This document shows positions 472-3,047 of a stretch of 3,047 nt of DNA, piece by piece. Below the pieces are notes generated by a model. That model was not told where the DNA came from, did not search any database, and saw only the letters and a program-made list of their open reading frames with translations. Each line of letters opens with the position of its first letter. The stretch's first letter is position 1. Location: NCBI RefSeq assembly GCF_003334335.1, contig NZ_QOWQ01000085.1. One strand, 5' to 3'. This DNA comes from Escherichia coli (lineage in GTDB: Bacteria; Pseudomonadota; Gammaproteobacteria; Enterobacterales; Enterobacteriaceae). The position numbers and the translations under genes are program-made.

Positions 472-531
472 ACATTTTAGAATGGTTCAAAGGGGACATT
501 ACAGCTTGGTGTTAACAATAGCCTGCTTCTC

Positions 532-547
532 CGTGCCTTTCGGCACG
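532..547 (-). other. GC-rich hairpin with GAAA tetraloop on the minus-strand transcript
   Basis: Plus CGTGCC-TTTC-GGCACG; minus RNA CGUGCC-GAAA-GGCACG (6-bp stem, GNRA-type loop). No U-tract follows, so it is not a classic intrinsic terminator. Confidence 0.3.
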
Positions 548-592
548 TAAGAGGCTAACCTACATGTGTCTAGCATGAAATTGGCCTCAGAT

Positions 593-627
593 TAATGTTA
601 AGCGTCTTGCAGGACGCGTAATGTTAA
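593..627. repeat. 9-bp direct repeat TAATGTTAA (593-601 and 619-627) flanking a short hairpin (602-618)
   Basis: Read directly: TAATGTTAA, then GCGTCT-TGCAG-GGACGC (stem includes one G-U pair), then TAATGTTAA. Function unknown. Confidence 0.45.
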
Positions 628-640
628 CTGGGGCTTTTCT

Positions 641-676
641 CTATCTGCCGTTGGTGTCCATGCCCGAGGCAGATAG
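641..676. repeat. Perfect 9-bp inverted repeat (CTATCTGCC / GGCAGATAG) with an 18-nt spacer
   Basis: 641-649 CTATCTGCC pairs exactly with 668-676 GGCAGATAG. It lies in ORF-poor DNA downstream of the small membrane protein gene (minus-strand sense). Confidence 0.45.
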
Positions 677-777
677 CCTCAAGCACCCGCAGTCATTCTA
701 CTTAACTAAGATTTCCCCGCAAACCGTTTTTGTCCAGCACAGTAAATATCCAACTAAACCAATGGAGTTCGCTGTAT

Positions 778-957: not shown

Positions 958-1211
958 TATTCCTCCTACAATCAATGTGCAATTACATTTAAACACACCT
1001 CAATTTGGCCGGACATATAAATATCTAAACCAGAAAAAATCACTTACATAGCGTTACAAACTCTTTAGTCTAAAGGTTCATCGTAAAACATTCCCCATAC
1101 TTATCAGTCCGTTCCGCGCCAGGTAGCTCATTGCCTTATCTGGCAACCTGTAATCAGGTTTCCGCTTTTTCAGTTGGCTGGTCGTTTAACCGACATAGTT
1201 AATCCATTAAT

Positions 1212-1499
1212 CTAGTTGCCGGATGTTGGTGGATTTTCGCGTTTTAGTTGTTCATAAAAGTGCACAGCTTTAACCAGTTCTTCTGATGTAACTGGGACTG
1301 GTGAGGCAGTGAATAAGGCCTGAATTTGATAGTTCGGCCTGTCGTTACAATCCTCTTTTTTCGGTACATATTTCCAGTCACCAGACCACTACTTCCCCTG
1401 AAAGTCCGTAACGCCTTTTTTCACGTAGCGATATCGCCATGCCACTGGTTTTGCTTGCCCCGCCGTTTCATGCCCTTCCTGATAATTAATCTCGCTCAT
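1212..1499 (-). pseudogene. Small phage-like ORF (95 codons) interrupted by one in-frame TAG at 1391..1389
   Basis: Minus frame: MSEINYQEGHETAGQAKPVAWRYRYVKKGVTDFQGK-TAG-WSGDWKYVPKKEDCNDRPNYQIQALFTASPVPVTSEELVKAVHFYEQLKRENPPTSGN-TAG. Its ATG (1499..1497) overlaps the upstream gene's TGA as ATGA. Coding-like sequence continues in the same frame after the amber codon. Confidence 0.4.
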
Positions 1500-1687
1500 T
1501 CATCGCCCCACTCATCACAATATGCTTCGACCGGAGTTTTTCCCGCTTCATAGTCATCACGCTAGGATTCGACATCAGCAGCACTTCCACCGCGTAACTC
1601 ACCATAGTCCATTAATAGTTCATCCCGCTCTTCAAAACTGATGTTATATTTAGCTGAACAAAAATCAGCCACTTTGTTCTTCCTCAT
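1496..1687 (-). pseudogene. Small acidic ORF (63 codons) interrupted by one in-frame TAG at 1564..1562
   Basis: Minus frame: MRKNKVADFCSAKYNISFEERDELLMDYGELRGGSAADVES-TAG-RDDYEAGKTPVEAYCDEWGDE-TGA. The final TGA (1498..1496) overlaps the next gene's ATG, which argues that the post-amber segment is the true C-terminus. Confidence 0.4.
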
Positions 1688-1736
1688 CGTCTTTTATTTC
1701 GTGGTATGAGTAATTGCAGTAGTTAAAGAAAATTTC

Positions 1737-1847
1737 TTATGCTCCGTCATGAATTTCCTCAGGTGTTGCGTCATCGTCCACTTCGAATACATCCTCAAAA
1801 TCTCCACCAGCTATTCCCGTTTCAATAATAATTTTGAACTTTCGCAT
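1737..1847 (-). CDS. Very acidic small protein, 36 aa
   Basis: ATG 1847..1845; MRKFKIIIETGIAGGDFEDVFEVDDDATPEEIHDGA with 11 D/E against 3 K/R. An AGGAGG lies upstream, separated from the ATG by a stable hairpin. Confidence 0.35.
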   Translation of the reverse strand: MRKFKIIIETGIAGGDFEDVFEVDDDATPEEIHDGA

Positions 1848-1854
1848 TTCACTA

Positions 1855-1876
1855 CCGCCCTTTCGGGCGGCCTCCT
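1855..1876 (-). promoter_or_regulatory. Shine-Dalgarno AGGAGG followed by a GAAA-tetraloop hairpin, then 7 nt, then the ATG of the 36-aa ORF
   Basis: Minus RNA: AGGAGG (plus 1871-1876), then CCGCCC-GAAA-GGGCGG (plus 1855-1870, 6-bp all-GC stem), then UAGUGAA, then AUG (1847). The hairpin would bring the ribosome-binding site to a functional distance from the start codon when folded. Confidence 0.35.
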
Positions 1877-1932
1877 GATGTTCTGAGGGTGCAGAAATCC
1901 ATCCGGTTAAGGATTAAATTTTATTTACAGAA

Positions 1933-1950
1933 CTGAATTTAATTATTCAG
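1933..1950. promoter_or_regulatory. 18-bp near-palindrome CTGAAT-TTAATT-ATTCAG in an AT-rich intergenic region; operator-like
   Basis: The outer 6-bp arms are exact reverse complements (1933-1938 and 1945-1950). The site lies in the ~260-bp AT-rich gap between the methyltransferase stop and the small-ORF cluster, where a promoter for that cluster is expected. Confidence 0.25.
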
Positions 1951-1981
1951 ATATACGTATCTGTAGCCTTACGAATCTACT

Positions 1982-2031
1982 CACTGGATGCCTCTTTCAT
2001 AAAAATAATCCAGTGGGTTTTATCGTTTTTT
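1982..2031 (+). terminator. Plus-strand-oriented terminator-like hairpin followed by a T-tract
   Basis: CACTGGAT (1982-1989) pairs with ATCCAGTG (2008-2015), an 8-bp stem with an 18-nt loop, followed by GGTTTTATCGTTTTTT. On the minus strand no U-tract follows, so the orientation is plus. The large loop lowers confidence. Confidence 0.3.
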
Positions 2032-2109
2032 CCCTGTTCGTTGACAGATAACAGGTTTTCTGTCTGTCAGTGCCAGAATCTGGCTTACCGGTATTTGCGT
2101 TTCATTCCA

Positions 2110-2466
2110 TTAAAAAATCAGAACGCCGTGCGGCCTCAACACCCGAAAGGCTTCTTTAAATCTCTGTCGCGAATCATCACGCCAGGCATCTTTATTCAGC
2201 CGTCCATATTTCTTTCCCATCCAGGCGTTATCACCAACACTCTCAAGATGCGGAGGGTCTAATACAACCATCGAAAAAGATGCGTCTGCAAATGATAATG
2301 CACGAAAATCTGCGATAATGTCAGGGCTGATAATCAAGCGTCTCCCATTGCGTAATGTGTATCCTTCTTTTCTGATATCGCTGAATATCGCCCGTTCGTC
2401 AGACTTATCGAACCAGAACATGCGGCTGCCACAGCACATATCAAGAATGGTTGCCGGTGCACTCAC
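2110..2466 (-). CDS. SAM-dependent methyltransferase core (118 aa), probably a phage-type DNA methyltransferase, apparently lacking a normal N-terminus
   Basis: Protein contains a motif-I-like LDMCCGS near its start, a DPPH motif resembling motif IV (D/N-PP-Y/F/H) of amino-methyltransferases, and VLRPHGVL resembling the common LKPGG motif. The only in-frame start is a GTG that overlaps the upstream ORF's stop (GTGA); a stop lies 7 codons further upstream in this frame. Confidence 0.55.
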   Translation of the reverse strand: MSAPATILDMCCGSRMFWFDKSDERAIFSDIRKEGYTLRNGRRLIISPDIIADFRALSFADASFSMVVLDPPHLESVGDNAWMGKKYGRLNKDAWRDDSRQRFKEAFRVLRPHGVLIF

Positions 2467-2729
2467 TGCGCCACGTCCTGAAAATTACCCTGATAGAAAG
2501 CCAGTATGCGCTGCATAACTTCGCTCTTCCGGCACTCGCGACAGATTATGTTTAGGCGACTGTCGTAGCGACGTATTTCTCCGTCAGGTGATGACCAGAT
2601 AAGGTCCGGATCAACCACAGCAGGTTTCTTCACCTTTGCCCTCGAGAGTTTTTTGCGGGCGTTTTGCCAGTCCTTACGCGCCTGTTCAGAGGGGAATAAC
2701 CCGTATCCGGAGCTTAAGTTGCACGCCAT
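2463..2729 (-). CDS. Hypothetical 88-aa protein; possibly the N-terminal part of the adjacent methyltransferase separated by a frameshift
   Basis: ORF MACNLSS...DLIWSSPDGEIRRYDSRLNIICRECRKSEVMQRILAFYQGNFQDVAQ ends with a TGA that overlaps the GTG of the methyltransferase frame. There is no clear Shine-Dalgarno before ATG 2729. Codon usage is otherwise coding-like. Confidence 0.4.
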   Translation of the reverse strand: MACNLSSGYGLFPSEQARKDWQNARKKLSRAKVKKPAVVDPDLIWSSPDGEIRRYDSRLNIICRECRKSEVMQRILAFYQGNFQDVAQ

Positions 2730-2787
2730 CGGGTGGGTTAAGCATAAATGTATTCCTGGTGCTAAATGGCCCGAAATTCAGGCAGAG

Positions 2788-3047
2788 ATGCGCATCTGGA
2801 AAAAACGTCGCGAAGGTGAACGCAAGGAAACCGGAAAATACACGTCTGTTGTTGATCTCGCCCGCGCCAGAGCCAATCAACAGTACACTGAAAATTCAAC
2901 AGGAAAAATCAGCCCGGTCATTGCTGCCATTCATCGCGAATACAAGCAGACATGGAAAACACTGGATGACGAACTGGCCTACGCTCTCTGGCCTGGTGAT
3001 GTGGATGCCGGAAACATTGACGGCAGCATCCATCGCTGGGCAAAAAA
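2788..3047 (+). CDS. 5' part of a phage-like hypothetical protein; continues beyond the window end
   Basis: Frame 1 is open from 2569 to the window end. First ATG at 2788 gives MRIWKKRREGERKETGKYTSVVDLARARANQQYTENSTGKISPVIAAIHREYKQTWKTLDDELAYALWPGDVDAGNIDGSIHRWAK with E. coli-like codons (CGC, CTG, GCC, GAA). The exact start is uncertain, since coding-like sequence in this frame begins near 2740. Confidence 0.5.
   Translation, partial: MRIWKKRREGERKETGKYTSVVDLARARANQQYTENSTGKISPVIAAIHREYKQTWKTLDDELAYALWPGDVDAGNIDGSIHRWAK

What the first reader, a model, noticed from the sequence alone, without database searches (positions are those of the whole stretch)
1845..1902. Ribosome-binding site, GAAA-tetraloop hairpin and start codon arranged in series, nested inside a 16-codon upstream ORF
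Seen in sequence (minus strand): AGGAGG, then CCGCCC-GAAA-GGGCGG, then UAGUGAA, then AUG of the acidic 36-aa ORF. Unfolded, the ribosome-binding site is about 23 nt from the AUG (non-functional); folded, the spacing is about 7 nt. A 16-codon upstream ORF (ATG 1902..1900, MDFCTLRTSGGRPKGR, stop TAG 1854-1852) spans the ribosome-binding site and the hairpin and terminates 4 nt before the AUG. Established knowledge: hairpins between Shine-Dalgarno and start codon that restore functional spacing are documented in phage T4 (genes 38 and 25), and upstream-ORF termination-reinitiation is a known coupling mechanism. Inference: structure-dependent translational control of the small acidic gene. A second GAAA-tetraloop hairpin of the same style occurs at 532-547.
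Basis: partly seen in the sequence, partly recalled or inferred. Interest (0 to 1): 0.45.

Follow-up and report, generated by a model that had tools for sequence, protein, structure and literature searches.

The report
Hairpin-split ribosome-binding cassette in prophage
A very stable RNA hairpin lies between the ribosome-binding site and the start codon of a small, now broken prophage gene. The same site-plus-hairpin cassette precedes several unrelated genes in related E. coli phages, so it is probably a portable "looped-out" translation start like two known in phage T4, while the upstream mini-ORF looks like a chance by-product.

Summary
The sequence features are all present at the stated coordinates on the minus strand: AGGAGG (1876-1871), CCGCCC-GAAA-GGGCGG (1870-1855), UAGUGAA, then AUG (1847-1845). 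The hairpin is predicted at -12.4 kcal/mol and about 100% formed.

The window is a decayed Qin-like E. coli prophage. The "36-aa acidic ORF" is the N-terminal part of a 60-aa DUF7167 gene killed by AAA->TAA.

In more than 300 related phage loci, the same AGGAGG+hairpin cassette precedes at least three unrelated gene families: DUF7167, a 72-aa membrane protein and Ead/Ea22-like proteins. The start codon always lies 6-9 nt after the stem, with no other Shine-Dalgarno (SD) sequence in between. The same families also occur with ordinary contiguous SDs and no hairpin.

Energetically, AGGAGG is the only favourable anti-SD site. This fits a split translation-initiation region (TIR) like those of T4 genes 38 and 25.

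Covariation is weak: one compensatory G-C->A-U change, not significant against shuffles. Nothing is tested experimentally.

The 16-codon uORF depends on one G->T change found in about 8% of copies and has no SD, so it is not part of the design. The second GAAA hairpin (532-547) belongs to a hok/sok leader (Rfam RF01794).

Verdict: probable new member of a known kind, of moderate interest.

The parts
1871..1876 (-). Shine-Dalgarno sequence AGGAGG, directly abutting the 5' base of the hairpin
   Evidence: Sequence. Anti-SD hybridisation is -9.7 to -10.3 kcal/mol and net -3.5 to -4.5 after opening cost; it is the only favourable site within 70 nt upstream of the AUG. A GGAG/AGGA-type core is kept in nearly all cassette copies.
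1855..1870 (-). Hairpin CCGCCC-GAAA-GGGCGG: six G-C pairs, a GNRA tetraloop, and a likely seventh G1871-U1854 pair
   Evidence: Predicted at -12.4 kcal/mol with pair probabilities >=0.988. Present in about 200 DUF7167 upstream regions with variants that still fold (-3.3 to -12.4 kcal/mol). One compensatory G-C->A-U change; loops GAAA, GGCA and GUCA.
1848..1854 (-). 7-nt A/U-rich spacer UAGUGAA between the stem base and the start codon.
   Evidence: Spacer length is 6-7 nt before DUF7167, 6 nt before the 72-aa gene and 8-9 nt before Ea22-like genes.
1845..1847 (-). AUG start codon of the DUF7167 gene
   Evidence: PGAP and phage annotations start here. Distant homologues begin with the same MRKFK....
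1665..1847 (-). DUF7167 (PF23768, phrog_1997) pseudogene. Codon 37 is AAA->TAA at 1739-1737, which leaves the 36-aa ORF 1737-1847; intact relatives are 60 aa.
   Evidence: Of 199 cassette-bearing copies, 172 are intact 60-aa ORFs and 16 carry this truncation.
1877..1950 (-). Conserved ~75-nt leader that travels with the cassette. It holds an AU-rich hairpin (1950-1933), the invariant block UUUAAUCCUUAACCGGA (1918-1902), and a GA(G/U)GG...CCCUC stem (1903-1899 with 1889-1885).
   Evidence: BLAST of the 640R1 leader matches window 1950-1853. Conservation was measured in 77 distinct leaders. The same leader precedes other genes.
1852..1902 (-). 16-codon uORF (MDFCTLRTSGGRPKGR). It is allele-specific and is not regarded as functional.
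   Evidence: The AUG is created by G->U at 1901. It is present only in the window-type sequences (L001_n15 and L002_n1 of 204 upstream sequences). No purine-rich SD lies upstream.

Best explanation
This is a split (non-contiguous) translation-initiation region carried on a portable intergenic cassette of lambdoid E. coli phages.

Proposed mechanism. On the polycistronic early transcript, the six-to-seven-pair G-C hairpin capped by a GNRA tetraloop folds as soon as it is made. The 30S subunit pairs its anti-SD with the AGGAGG at the 5' foot of the helix. Because the helix loops out, the AUG 6-7 nt beyond the 3' foot lands in the P site. The linear spacing of 23 nt therefore behaves like about 7 nt, as in T4 genes 38 and 25.

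What is shown: the anatomy, the predicted stability, conservation of the cassette, its recurrence in front of unrelated genes with a constant short spacer, and the lack of any alternative SD.

What is inferred: that ribosomes actually initiate this way, and that the hairpin is required.

In this window the cassette is an intact relic. Its gene (DUF7167) has a nonsense mutation, and the prophage has lost its early promoter region.
For: - Anatomy and stability.
- AGGAGG is the only net-favourable anti-SD site (-3.5 to -4.5 kcal/mol). The SD-like 3' arm GGGCGGU costs +5.8 kcal/mol because the hairpin must melt.
- The SD+hairpin+spacer is kept before DUF7167 in about 200 loci, most of them intact 60-aa ORFs.
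- The identical cassette precedes a 72-aa membrane protein (spacer 6 nt), Ead/Ea22-like proteins (8-9 nt) and a fourth ORF (8 nt). No GGAG-like element lies between stem and start in any of them, and annotated starts agree.
- The same three families, and distant DUF7167 homologues, also occur with ordinary SDs 4-8 nt from the start and no hairpin. The cassette minus its 16-nt hairpin (AGGAGG|UAGUGAAAUG) looks like those ordinary sites (GGGGAG|UGAAAGAUG, AAGGAG|AGUGAUGUG).
- In leader context A the nearest upstream stop codon is about 90 nt away, so coupling cannot replace de novo initiation.
- Stem variants are mostly pair-preserving (C->U giving G-U). One G-C->A-U double change is found, and both possible intermediates also occur.
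- No promoter, terminator or Rfam family explains the element.
- Precedent: T4 gene 38 (22->5 nt) and gene 25 (27->11 nt), validated by mutagenesis (PMC3014915).
Against: - There is no experimental evidence.
- Covariation is not significant: 95.8% of hairpin cells are paired, but 209 of 500 column shuffles do as well on the whole structure (the upstream stem scored together with the hairpin). Only one pair changes on both sides.
- Pair-breaking variants persist in some lineages: A-C in about 16 loci, plus GGACGG, GGGCAG and CGGCCC.
- The copies are closely related and spread by recombination, so recurrence is not fully independent evidence.
- The 3' arm is more conserved than the 5' arm. That is also what a sequence-specific role for GGGCGG would give.
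- Predicted pairing of AGGA with an upstream UCCU or CCUC (about 50%) could mean the SD is partly masked.
Confidence: 0.55

Rival explanations
1. The cassette is mainly a short conserved boundary (linker) sequence at which lambdoid phages exchange accessory genes by homologous recombination. On this view the hairpin has no specific role in translation.
For: - All four combinations of two upstream contexts (leader A, or the end of an upstream ORF ...AACGATTAATGTC) with two downstream genes exist.
- Homology breakpoints fall exactly at the SD (ArgO145) or at the 3' foot of the hairpin (Citrobacter braakii L337; Rac-SA53).
- Boundary sequences have been proposed for lambdoid phages (Clark et al. 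2001 and Susskind & Botstein 1978, as cited in PMC3029335).
Against: - Being a recombination joint follows from any shared 25-100-nt segment and does not exclude a translational role.
- It does not explain why a perfect SD abuts the stem.
- It does not explain why the start codon is always 6-9 nt beyond the stem.
- It does not explain why no gene that acquired the cassette has its own SD.
Confidence: 0.15
2. The hairpin is inhibitory or neutral. It keeps the strong SD too far away, or sequesters a weak SD (GGCGG) in its 3' arm. These accessory genes would then be translated only weakly, or only when an upstream ribosome or a helicase opens the stem.
For: - Structure in the initiation region usually lowers translation (general knowledge).
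- The 3' arm GGGCGGU sits at an ideal 6-7 nt from the AUG, hybridises at -7.1 kcal/mol, and is more conserved than the 5' arm.
- In a hairpin-less homologue, GGGGGAG occupies the equivalent position.
- In the ArgO145 context an upstream gene ends 4 nt before the SD.
Against: - Opening the stem costs about 13 kcal/mol, so use of the 3' arm is net unfavourable at +5.8 kcal/mol.
- The GGGUGG, GGACGG and UGGCGG variants weaken that putative SD further, yet their ORFs stay intact.
- In leader context A there is no upstream ribosome within about 90 nt.
Confidence: 0.12
3. The hairpin, perhaps together with the invariant leader block, is an operator for an RNA-binding protein. Candidates are a phage translational repressor acting on several accessory genes at once, or a boxB/boxA-like loading site for an antitermination factor.
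For: - The same hairpin precedes several genes, which is regulon-like.
- The GCCC-GNRA-GGGC core resembles lambda boxB (from memory).
- The 17-nt block UUUAAUCCUUAACCGGA is invariant in 77 distinct leaders, more conserved than the hairpin itself.
Against: - Loop sequences vary (GAAA, GGCA, GUCA), and stems tolerate changes.
- The position tied to an SD and an AUG is unexplained by an antitermination role.
- Nut sites are not repeated before individual genes.
- There is no Rfam match and no candidate protein was identified.
Confidence: 0.08
4. The element acts on transcription or RNA stability: an intrinsic terminator, an attenuator, or a stem that protects the cistron after processing in the AU-rich leader.
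For: It is a very stable GC stem-loop downstream of an AU-rich, RNase E-like stretch. The whole 296-nt intergenic region folds unusually well, with z = -3.97.
Against: No U-tract follows the stem on either strand, and the terminator scan finds nothing there. A stability role would not require the SD/AUG geometry.
Confidence: 0.07
5. One reading: translation of the 16-codon uORF through the SD and hairpin, followed by termination-reinitiation 4 nt upstream, couples expression of the downstream gene.
For: The uORF exists in this window and ends 4 nt before the AUG.
Against: - Its AUG arises from a single G->U change found in only 16 of 204 upstream sequences; elsewhere the codon is AGG.
- No SD precedes it.
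- The window-type allele (GGAUGG) is the one found in the decayed Qin-like prophages DH5alpha and strain 300709, where DUF7167 is annotated with an internal stop; 16 of 199 cassette-bearing copies are truncated to 36 aa.
Confidence: 0.03

Closest known systems
Split translation-initiation regions of phage T4 genes 38 and 25 (Nivinskas et al. 1999; Malys & Nivinskas 2009; reviewed in PMC3014915)
   Same: The SD is too far from the AUG in linear sequence (T4: 22 and 27 nt; here 23 nt). A stable intervening hairpin fills the gap and leaves an effective spacing of 5-11 nt (here 6-7 nt). The element is phage-encoded and intercistronic. It is present in a clade of close relatives and absent from more distant homologues, which use ordinary sites.
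   Different: This one is found in temperate lambdoid phages, not T-even phages, and shares no sequence with the T4 elements. It is a repeated, portable cassette in front of at least three unrelated genes rather than a single-gene feature. It comes with a conserved ~75-nt leader. It is untested experimentally.
Short conserved boundary (linker) sequences at module junctions of lambdoid phages (Clark et al. 2001; Susskind & Botstein 1978; cited in PMC3029335)
   Same: It is a short conserved intergenic sequence shared by different gene contexts. Mosaic breakpoints coincide with its edges, and all combinations of flanking modules are seen.
   Different: The boundary-sequence idea concerns recombination only. 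Here the shared segment has a specific SD-hairpin-AUG geometry that points to a role in translation.
Non-contiguous initiation regions of E. coli rpmE and thrS mRNAs (PMC7297116)
   Same: A stable stem-loop interrupts the elements of a translation-initiation region.
   Different: In rpmE and thrS the stem separates an AU-rich enhancer from the SD and serves as an operator for an autogenous repressor. Here the stem separates the SD from the AUG, and no repressor is known.
hok/sok type I toxin-antitoxin leader (Rfam RF01794), relevant to the second hairpin at 532-547
   Same: The hairpin CGUGCC-GAAA-GGCACG aligns to the last stem-loop of the Rfam model (consensus ..ccugccgaAAGGCAAgG..).
   Different: It lies upstream of the hok SD, not between an SD and an AUG. 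It is unrelated to the DUF7167 cassette. The hok reading frame itself is cut off here by an ISNCY element.
Lambda boxB (nut-site hairpin with a GNRA-like loop)
   Same: It has a short G-C stem (GCCC/GGGC core) capped by a GNRA-type loop in a lambdoid early transcript.
   Different: The loop is a tetraloop, not a pentaloop, and its sequence varies. There is no adjacent canonical boxA. The position is immediately before start codons and is repeated. The resemblance is recalled from memory only and was not tested.

Membership tests
Split (hairpin-bridged) translation-initiation region, T4 gene 38/25 type | The linear SD-to-start distance is too long for function (more than about 15 nt) | tested here: met
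   There are 23 nt between AGGAGG and the AUG. The distance is 22-25 nt in the other gene contexts.
Split (hairpin-bridged) translation-initiation region, T4 gene 38/25 type | A stable hairpin fills the interval, so the effective SD-start spacing becomes about 5-11 nt | tested here: met
   By prediction only: -12.4 kcal/mol, pair probability >=0.988, 6-7 nt left. The spacing is 6-9 nt in all contexts.
Split (hairpin-bridged) translation-initiation region, T4 gene 38/25 type | No alternative SD at normal distance from the start codon | tested here: met
   The anti-SD scan with opening energies finds only AGGAGG favourable; the 3' arm is net +5.8 kcal/mol. The spacers UAGUGAA, UAAGAA, UAAUGAAAA and AACAGAUA lack GGAG-like cores.
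Split (hairpin-bridged) translation-initiation region, T4 gene 38/25 type | The structure is conserved phylogenetically, with compensatory changes | tested here: inconclusive
   95.8% of cells are paired and all variants still fold. Only one pair has a double change, and shuffles match the observed values (209 of 500). Some mismatched variants persist.
Split (hairpin-bridged) translation-initiation region, T4 gene 38/25 type | Stem-disrupting mutations lower translation and compensatory mutations restore it; the structure is confirmed by probing | not testable with these tools
   This needs reporter fusions, toeprinting and DMS/SHAPE probing.
Upstream-ORF termination-reinitiation coupling | A translatable uORF (start codon with its own ribosome-binding site) is conserved with the downstream gene | tested here: not met
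   The AUG is present in only 16 of 204 upstream sequences (AGG elsewhere), and no SD lies upstream.
Intrinsic (Rho-independent) terminator | A G+C-rich hairpin followed by a U-tract | tested here: not met
   The stem is followed by UAGUGAAAUG on the minus strand and CCUCCUGAUG on the plus strand. It is not reported by the terminator scan.
hok/sok leader (Rfam RF01794), for the second hairpin 532-547 | Match to the covariance model above its gathering score | tested here: met
   104.1 bits against a gathering score of 59, E = 7e-24, window 688-517 on the minus strand. The hairpin aligns to the model's last stem.
DUF7167 (PF23768 / phrog_1997) protein, for the downstream ORF | Sequence match over the full ~57-60-aa domain with an intact reading frame | tested here: not met
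   The family match is clear. The window copy has an in-frame TAA at codon 37, so it is a pseudogene.

The most novel reading that the evidence does not exclude
The ~100-nt leader plus SD-hairpin is a mobile 'plug-and-play' expression cassette of lambdoid phages. It would supply a self-contained, context-insulated split ribosome-binding site to whatever accessory gene is recombined behind it. It would also serve as a common operator: through the invariant UUUAAUCCUUAACCGGA block, the UCCU/CCUC sequences complementary to the SD, and the GNRA hairpin, a phage or host RNA-binding factor could switch a whole set of unrelated accessory genes on or off after transcription.
Probability: 0.15. Interest if true: 0.65.

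Novelty: new member of a known kind. Interest (0 to 1): 0.4.

Why it matters
Hairpin-bridged Shine-Dalgarno sites have been treated as a T4 curiosity; the T4 review read here describes only genes 38 and 25. If this cassette works the same way, the arrangement also exists in temperate lambdoid and Stx-type phages. There it would be a reusable module placed in front of several unrelated accessory genes.

Practical consequences:
- Gene callers mis-start these genes. The databases hold 87-146-aa calls that read through the hairpin.
- RBS-strength predictors that assume contiguous spacing would score these genes as untranslatable.
- A compact, very stable, context-independent split RBS could be useful as an insulating part in synthetic biology.
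- It offers a concrete, testable example of a boundary sequence at which phage mosaicism occurs.

For this particular window the element is a relic in a dead gene of a decayed prophage, so it has little biological consequence for the host.

Tried and rejected
- Covariation test of the hairpin and the upstream GAGGG/CCCUC stem on 45 distinct sequences. It was not significant, and the apparent compensatory change in the upstream stem (L062) turned out to be a register shift.
- Rfam searches of the window and of the canonical leader. Nothing matched except hok/sok.
- Promoter and terminator scans. Nothing was found at the cassette.
- A longer protein starting upstream and reading through the hairpin (the 87-146-aa database calls P0002, P0003, P0076). 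Rejected because the window has an in-frame TAA just upstream, the commonest allele has TAA immediately before the AUG (UAGUUAAAUG), and distant homologues start at MRKFK.
- The variants that lack AGGAGG (L024, L028, L032) as evidence against the SD. They result from an IS10-like insertion inside the hairpin.
- A genome-contig scan with the leader block. Of 16 hits, nearly all were chance matches in unrelated phyla; only Citrobacter braakii and an E. coli-phage-like contig were real.
- Literature searches for DUF7167 and for the hairpin sequence found nothing.
- One Python search with fuzzy regular expressions timed out and was replaced by BLAST.

Full report
**What the window is.** The 3047-bp window comes from a Qin-like lambdoid prophage of E. 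coli. Bases 1200-2500 are 100% identical to many chromosomes, and bases 78-2712 are 99.9% identical to phage PhiR42_1. Annotated relatives give the following gene order on the minus strand:
- a DUF977/LygF gene (2463-2729, N-terminus missing);
- a class I SAM methyltransferase (2110-2466);
- a 262-nt gap;
- a DUF7167 pseudogene (1665-1847, PGAP 'internal stop');
- a second frameshifted pseudogene (1078-1499);
- a hok/sok remnant;
- a partial ISNCY transposase (54-443).

In the window's own lineage (for example strain 300709), the DUF977 gene is fused at about position 2712 to an N-terminally truncated exonuclease gene on the other strand. The immunity region and the early promoter are therefore gone. 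This is a decayed, cryptic prophage.

**Checking the observation.** On the minus strand I read AGGAGG (1876-1871), CCGCCC-GAAA-GGGCGG (1870-1855), UAGUGAA (1854-1848) and AUG (1847-1845). I also read the uORF: AUG 1902-1900, then 16 codons, then UAG 1854-1852. The hairpin alone folds at -12.4 kcal/mol. In a 106-nt context every pair has probability >=0.988, and the last G of the SD tends to pair with the first U of the spacer. An all-G/C perfect 6-bp hairpin appears in only 2.2% of dinucleotide shuffles of the window. The 36-aa ORF, however, is not a gene in its own right. Read through its TAA (1739-1737), it continues in frame to a 60-aa product. That product matches intact 60-aa DUF7167 proteins (PF23768, phrog_1997) at 95-97% identity, and relatives have AAA where the window has TAA.

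**Conservation before DUF7167.** I collected upstream regions from 204 loci (IMG/VR, Logan, GenBank phages; some contigs were fetched twice). Nearly all carry AGGAGG-hairpin-UAGU(G/U)AA-AUG. The stem variants are:
- CCGUCC, CCGCCU and CUGUCC, which give G-U pairs;
- CCACCC/GGGUGG, a compensatory G-C->A-U change, in 9 loci;
- its two intermediates, CCACCC/GGGCGG and CCGCCC/GGGUGG;
- a few pair-breaking forms (GGACGG, GGGCAG, CCGUUC/UGGCGG).

Loops are GAAA, GGCA or GUCA. All variants still fold, at -3.3 to -12.4 kcal/mol. A formal count on 45 distinct sequences gives 95.8% of hairpin cells paired, against 39-58% for slid controls. Only one pair changes on both sides, and column shuffles reach the observed values in 209 of 500 trials. 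Covariation therefore does not prove selection for pairing. The sequences are simply too similar. The few loci without AGGAGG (L024, L028, L032) carry a 1.3-kb IS10-like element with a 407-aa IS4-family transposase. It is inserted inside the hairpin, with terminal inverted repeats and a duplicated GCCCGAAAGG.

**The uORF.** Its AUG comes from a G->U change (GGAGGG->GGAUGG, position 1901). That change is seen only in the window-type allele, in 16 of 204 upstream sequences. This is the allele of the decayed Qin-like prophages (DH5alpha and strain 300709), where DUF7167 is annotated with an internal stop; 16 of the 199 cassette-bearing copies are truncated to 36 aa. No SD precedes the uORF. In ArgO145 a real upstream gene ends with UAA 4 nt before AGGAGG. 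In 640R1 the upstream gene ends about 90 nt away. The uORF is therefore incidental. An in-frame N-terminal extension through the hairpin, which some gene callers annotate as 87-146-aa proteins, is excluded for two reasons. The commonest allele has UAA immediately before the AUG, and the window has an in-frame UAA upstream.

**The key comparative result.** A pattern scan that excluded DUF7167 starts and a tblastn survey of all held loci show the same (A/G)GGAGG-CCGCC(C/U)GAAAGGGCGG-UA... unit in front of other genes:
- a 72-aa membrane protein (MTTLFRKE..., ArgO145 gp12; spacer 6 nt);
- Ead/Ea22-like proteins (M(T/A)ELTKEQ...; spacer 8-9 nt);
- a fourth ORF in Rac-SA53 (spacer 8 nt).

In every case the annotated start lies 6-9 nt beyond the stem, and the spacer holds no GGAG-like sequence. 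The same families also occur with ordinary contiguous SDs 4-8 nt from the start and no hairpin (for example AAGGAG-AGUGAU-GUG and AAGGAG-UAACAA-AUG). Distant DUF7167 homologues do the same (GGGGGAG-UGAAAG-AUG and others). Removing the 16-nt hairpin from the cassette leaves AGGAGG-UAGUGAA-AUG, which looks like those ordinary sites. The geometry is what one expects if the ribosome 'does not see' the hairpin.

**Energetics.** I combined anti-SD hybridisation energy with the cost of opening local structure. AGGAGG scores net -3.5 to -4.5 kcal/mol. The SD-like 3' arm GGGCGGU scores +5.8 kcal/mol, because the hairpin would have to melt. No Rfam family, sigma-70-like promoter or intrinsic terminator accounts for the element, either in the window or in the canonical leader.

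**The cassette as a recombination joint.** Two upstream contexts exist. Context A is a ~75-nt leader: AU-rich, with the invariant block UUUAAUCCUUAACCGGA and a GAGGG...CCCUC stem. Context B is the end of an upstream ORF (...AACGAUUAAUGUC). Both combine with either downstream gene in all four ways. Homology to ArgO145 stops at the SD. In Citrobacter braakii the leader and hairpin are followed by unrelated sequence. This matches the 'boundary sequence' idea for lambdoid mosaicism (cited in PMC3029335). It is compatible with a translational role and does not exclude one.

**Most likely mechanism.** The best reading is a split translation-initiation region. AGGAGG pairs with 16S rRNA, the hairpin loops out, and the AUG 6-7 nt past the stem reaches the P site. 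T4 gene 38 (22->5 nt) and gene 25 (27->11 nt) work this way, and in those cases stem-destabilising mutations lower translation (PMC3014915). The anatomy, predicted stability, conservation, recurrence and lack of an alternative SD are shown here. Actual initiation and dependence on the stem are inferred. I put this at about 0.55. The rivals are:
- a pure recombination linker;
- an inhibitory hairpin or a weak SD in the 3' arm;
- an operator for an RNA-binding factor (the leader block is more conserved than the hairpin, and AGGA is predicted to pair about 50% of the time with an upstream UCCU or CCUC);
- an RNA-stability element;

**The second hairpin.** The hairpin at 532-547 (CGUGCC-GAAA-GGCACG on the minus strand) is the last stem of the hok/sok leader. 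The Rfam model RF01794 matches window 688-517 at 104 bits against a gathering score of 59. It lies upstream of the hok SD, and the hok reading frame is cut by the ISNCY element at about 517. It is unrelated to the DUF7167 cassette.

**Novelty and verdict.** No paper in the searchable library holds the hairpin sequence or mentions DUF7167. The element is best filed as a probable new member of the known class of hairpin-bridged SD sites. It is notable for being a repeated, portable cassette in temperate phages. In this window it is an intact relic in front of a dead gene. Interest is moderate (0.4): the mechanism is not new and is untested here, but the recurrence before unrelated genes makes it a clean, testable case.

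Noticed in passing
window 517-688 (minus strand), with 54-443: This is a hok/sok type I toxin-antitoxin leader (Rfam RF01794, 104 bits). Its hok reading frame is cut off at about 517 by a partial ISNCY-family transposase gene. Homology to IS-free phages (640R1 and others, which carry a 'host killer protein') begins at 518.
   Followed up: partly
window ~2700-3047: There is a deletion or rearrangement junction here. The DUF977/LygF (Ren-like, phrog_142) gene, lacking its N-terminus, abuts an N-terminally truncated exonuclease (RecE/ExoVIII-like) gene on the opposite strand. About 90 E. coli genomes share this junction. It removes the dicA/dicC immunity region and the early promoter.
   Followed up: partly
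L032 ~167-1490 (also L024, L028, L123): An IS10-like element (407-aa IS4-family transposase, ends CTGAGGAATTCCC / GGGGATCCCTCAG) is inserted inside the GC hairpin of the cassette, with GCCCGAAAGG duplicated on both sides. It separates AGGAGG from the DUF7167 start.
   Followed up: partly
window 1902-1918 (minus strand); 77 distinct leaders from the loci: The 17-nt block UUUAAUCCUUAACCGGA of the leader is invariant in all 77 distinct leaders, so it is more conserved than the hairpin or the SD. It contains UCCU, which is complementary to the SD, and loosely resembles a boxA-type UCUUUAAC motif (from memory). Its function is unknown.
   Followed up: no
window 1903-2125: The whole intergenic region between the methyltransferase and the cassette folds unusually well (z = -3.97). 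It holds several hairpins: GACAGA..UCUGUC at 2043-2068, CACUGGAU..AUCCAGUG at about 1982-2015, and CAGAUA-UACG-UAUCUG at 1948-1963. On the plus strand the 1982-2015 stem is followed by GGTTTTATCGTTTTTT, which looks like a terminator for a plus-strand transcript.
   Followed up: no
window 2121-2144 (minus strand): A terminator-like stem followed by UGAUUUUUUA overlaps the last codons of the methyltransferase gene. If it is active, the downstream cassette genes would need read-through or antitermination.
   Followed up: no
proteins P0002, P0003, P0004, P0009, P0076: Public gene calls of 84-146 aa for DUF7167 start upstream and read through the SD and hairpin (…EHQEAARKGGSEMRKFK…). These are probably mis-annotated starts caused by the unusual initiation region.
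   Followed up: partly
[not shown]
   Followed up: partly
window 1078-1499 and 1562-1687 (minus strand): The genes downstream of DUF7167 are also decayed. One is a frameshifted pseudogene matching phrog_660. The other is a degenerate copy of the 58-aa MADFGSTKYN... gene, which in intact phages overlaps the DUF7167 stop codon (AUGGCUGA).
   Followed up: no
GenBank PP818812.1: A record named Actinobacillus phage vB_Apl-pPE4 carries the hok region and the leader cassette at 90-94% identity to E. coli Qin/Rac-like phages. This is surprising for a Pasteurellaceae host and may reflect contamination or mislabelling.
   Followed up: no
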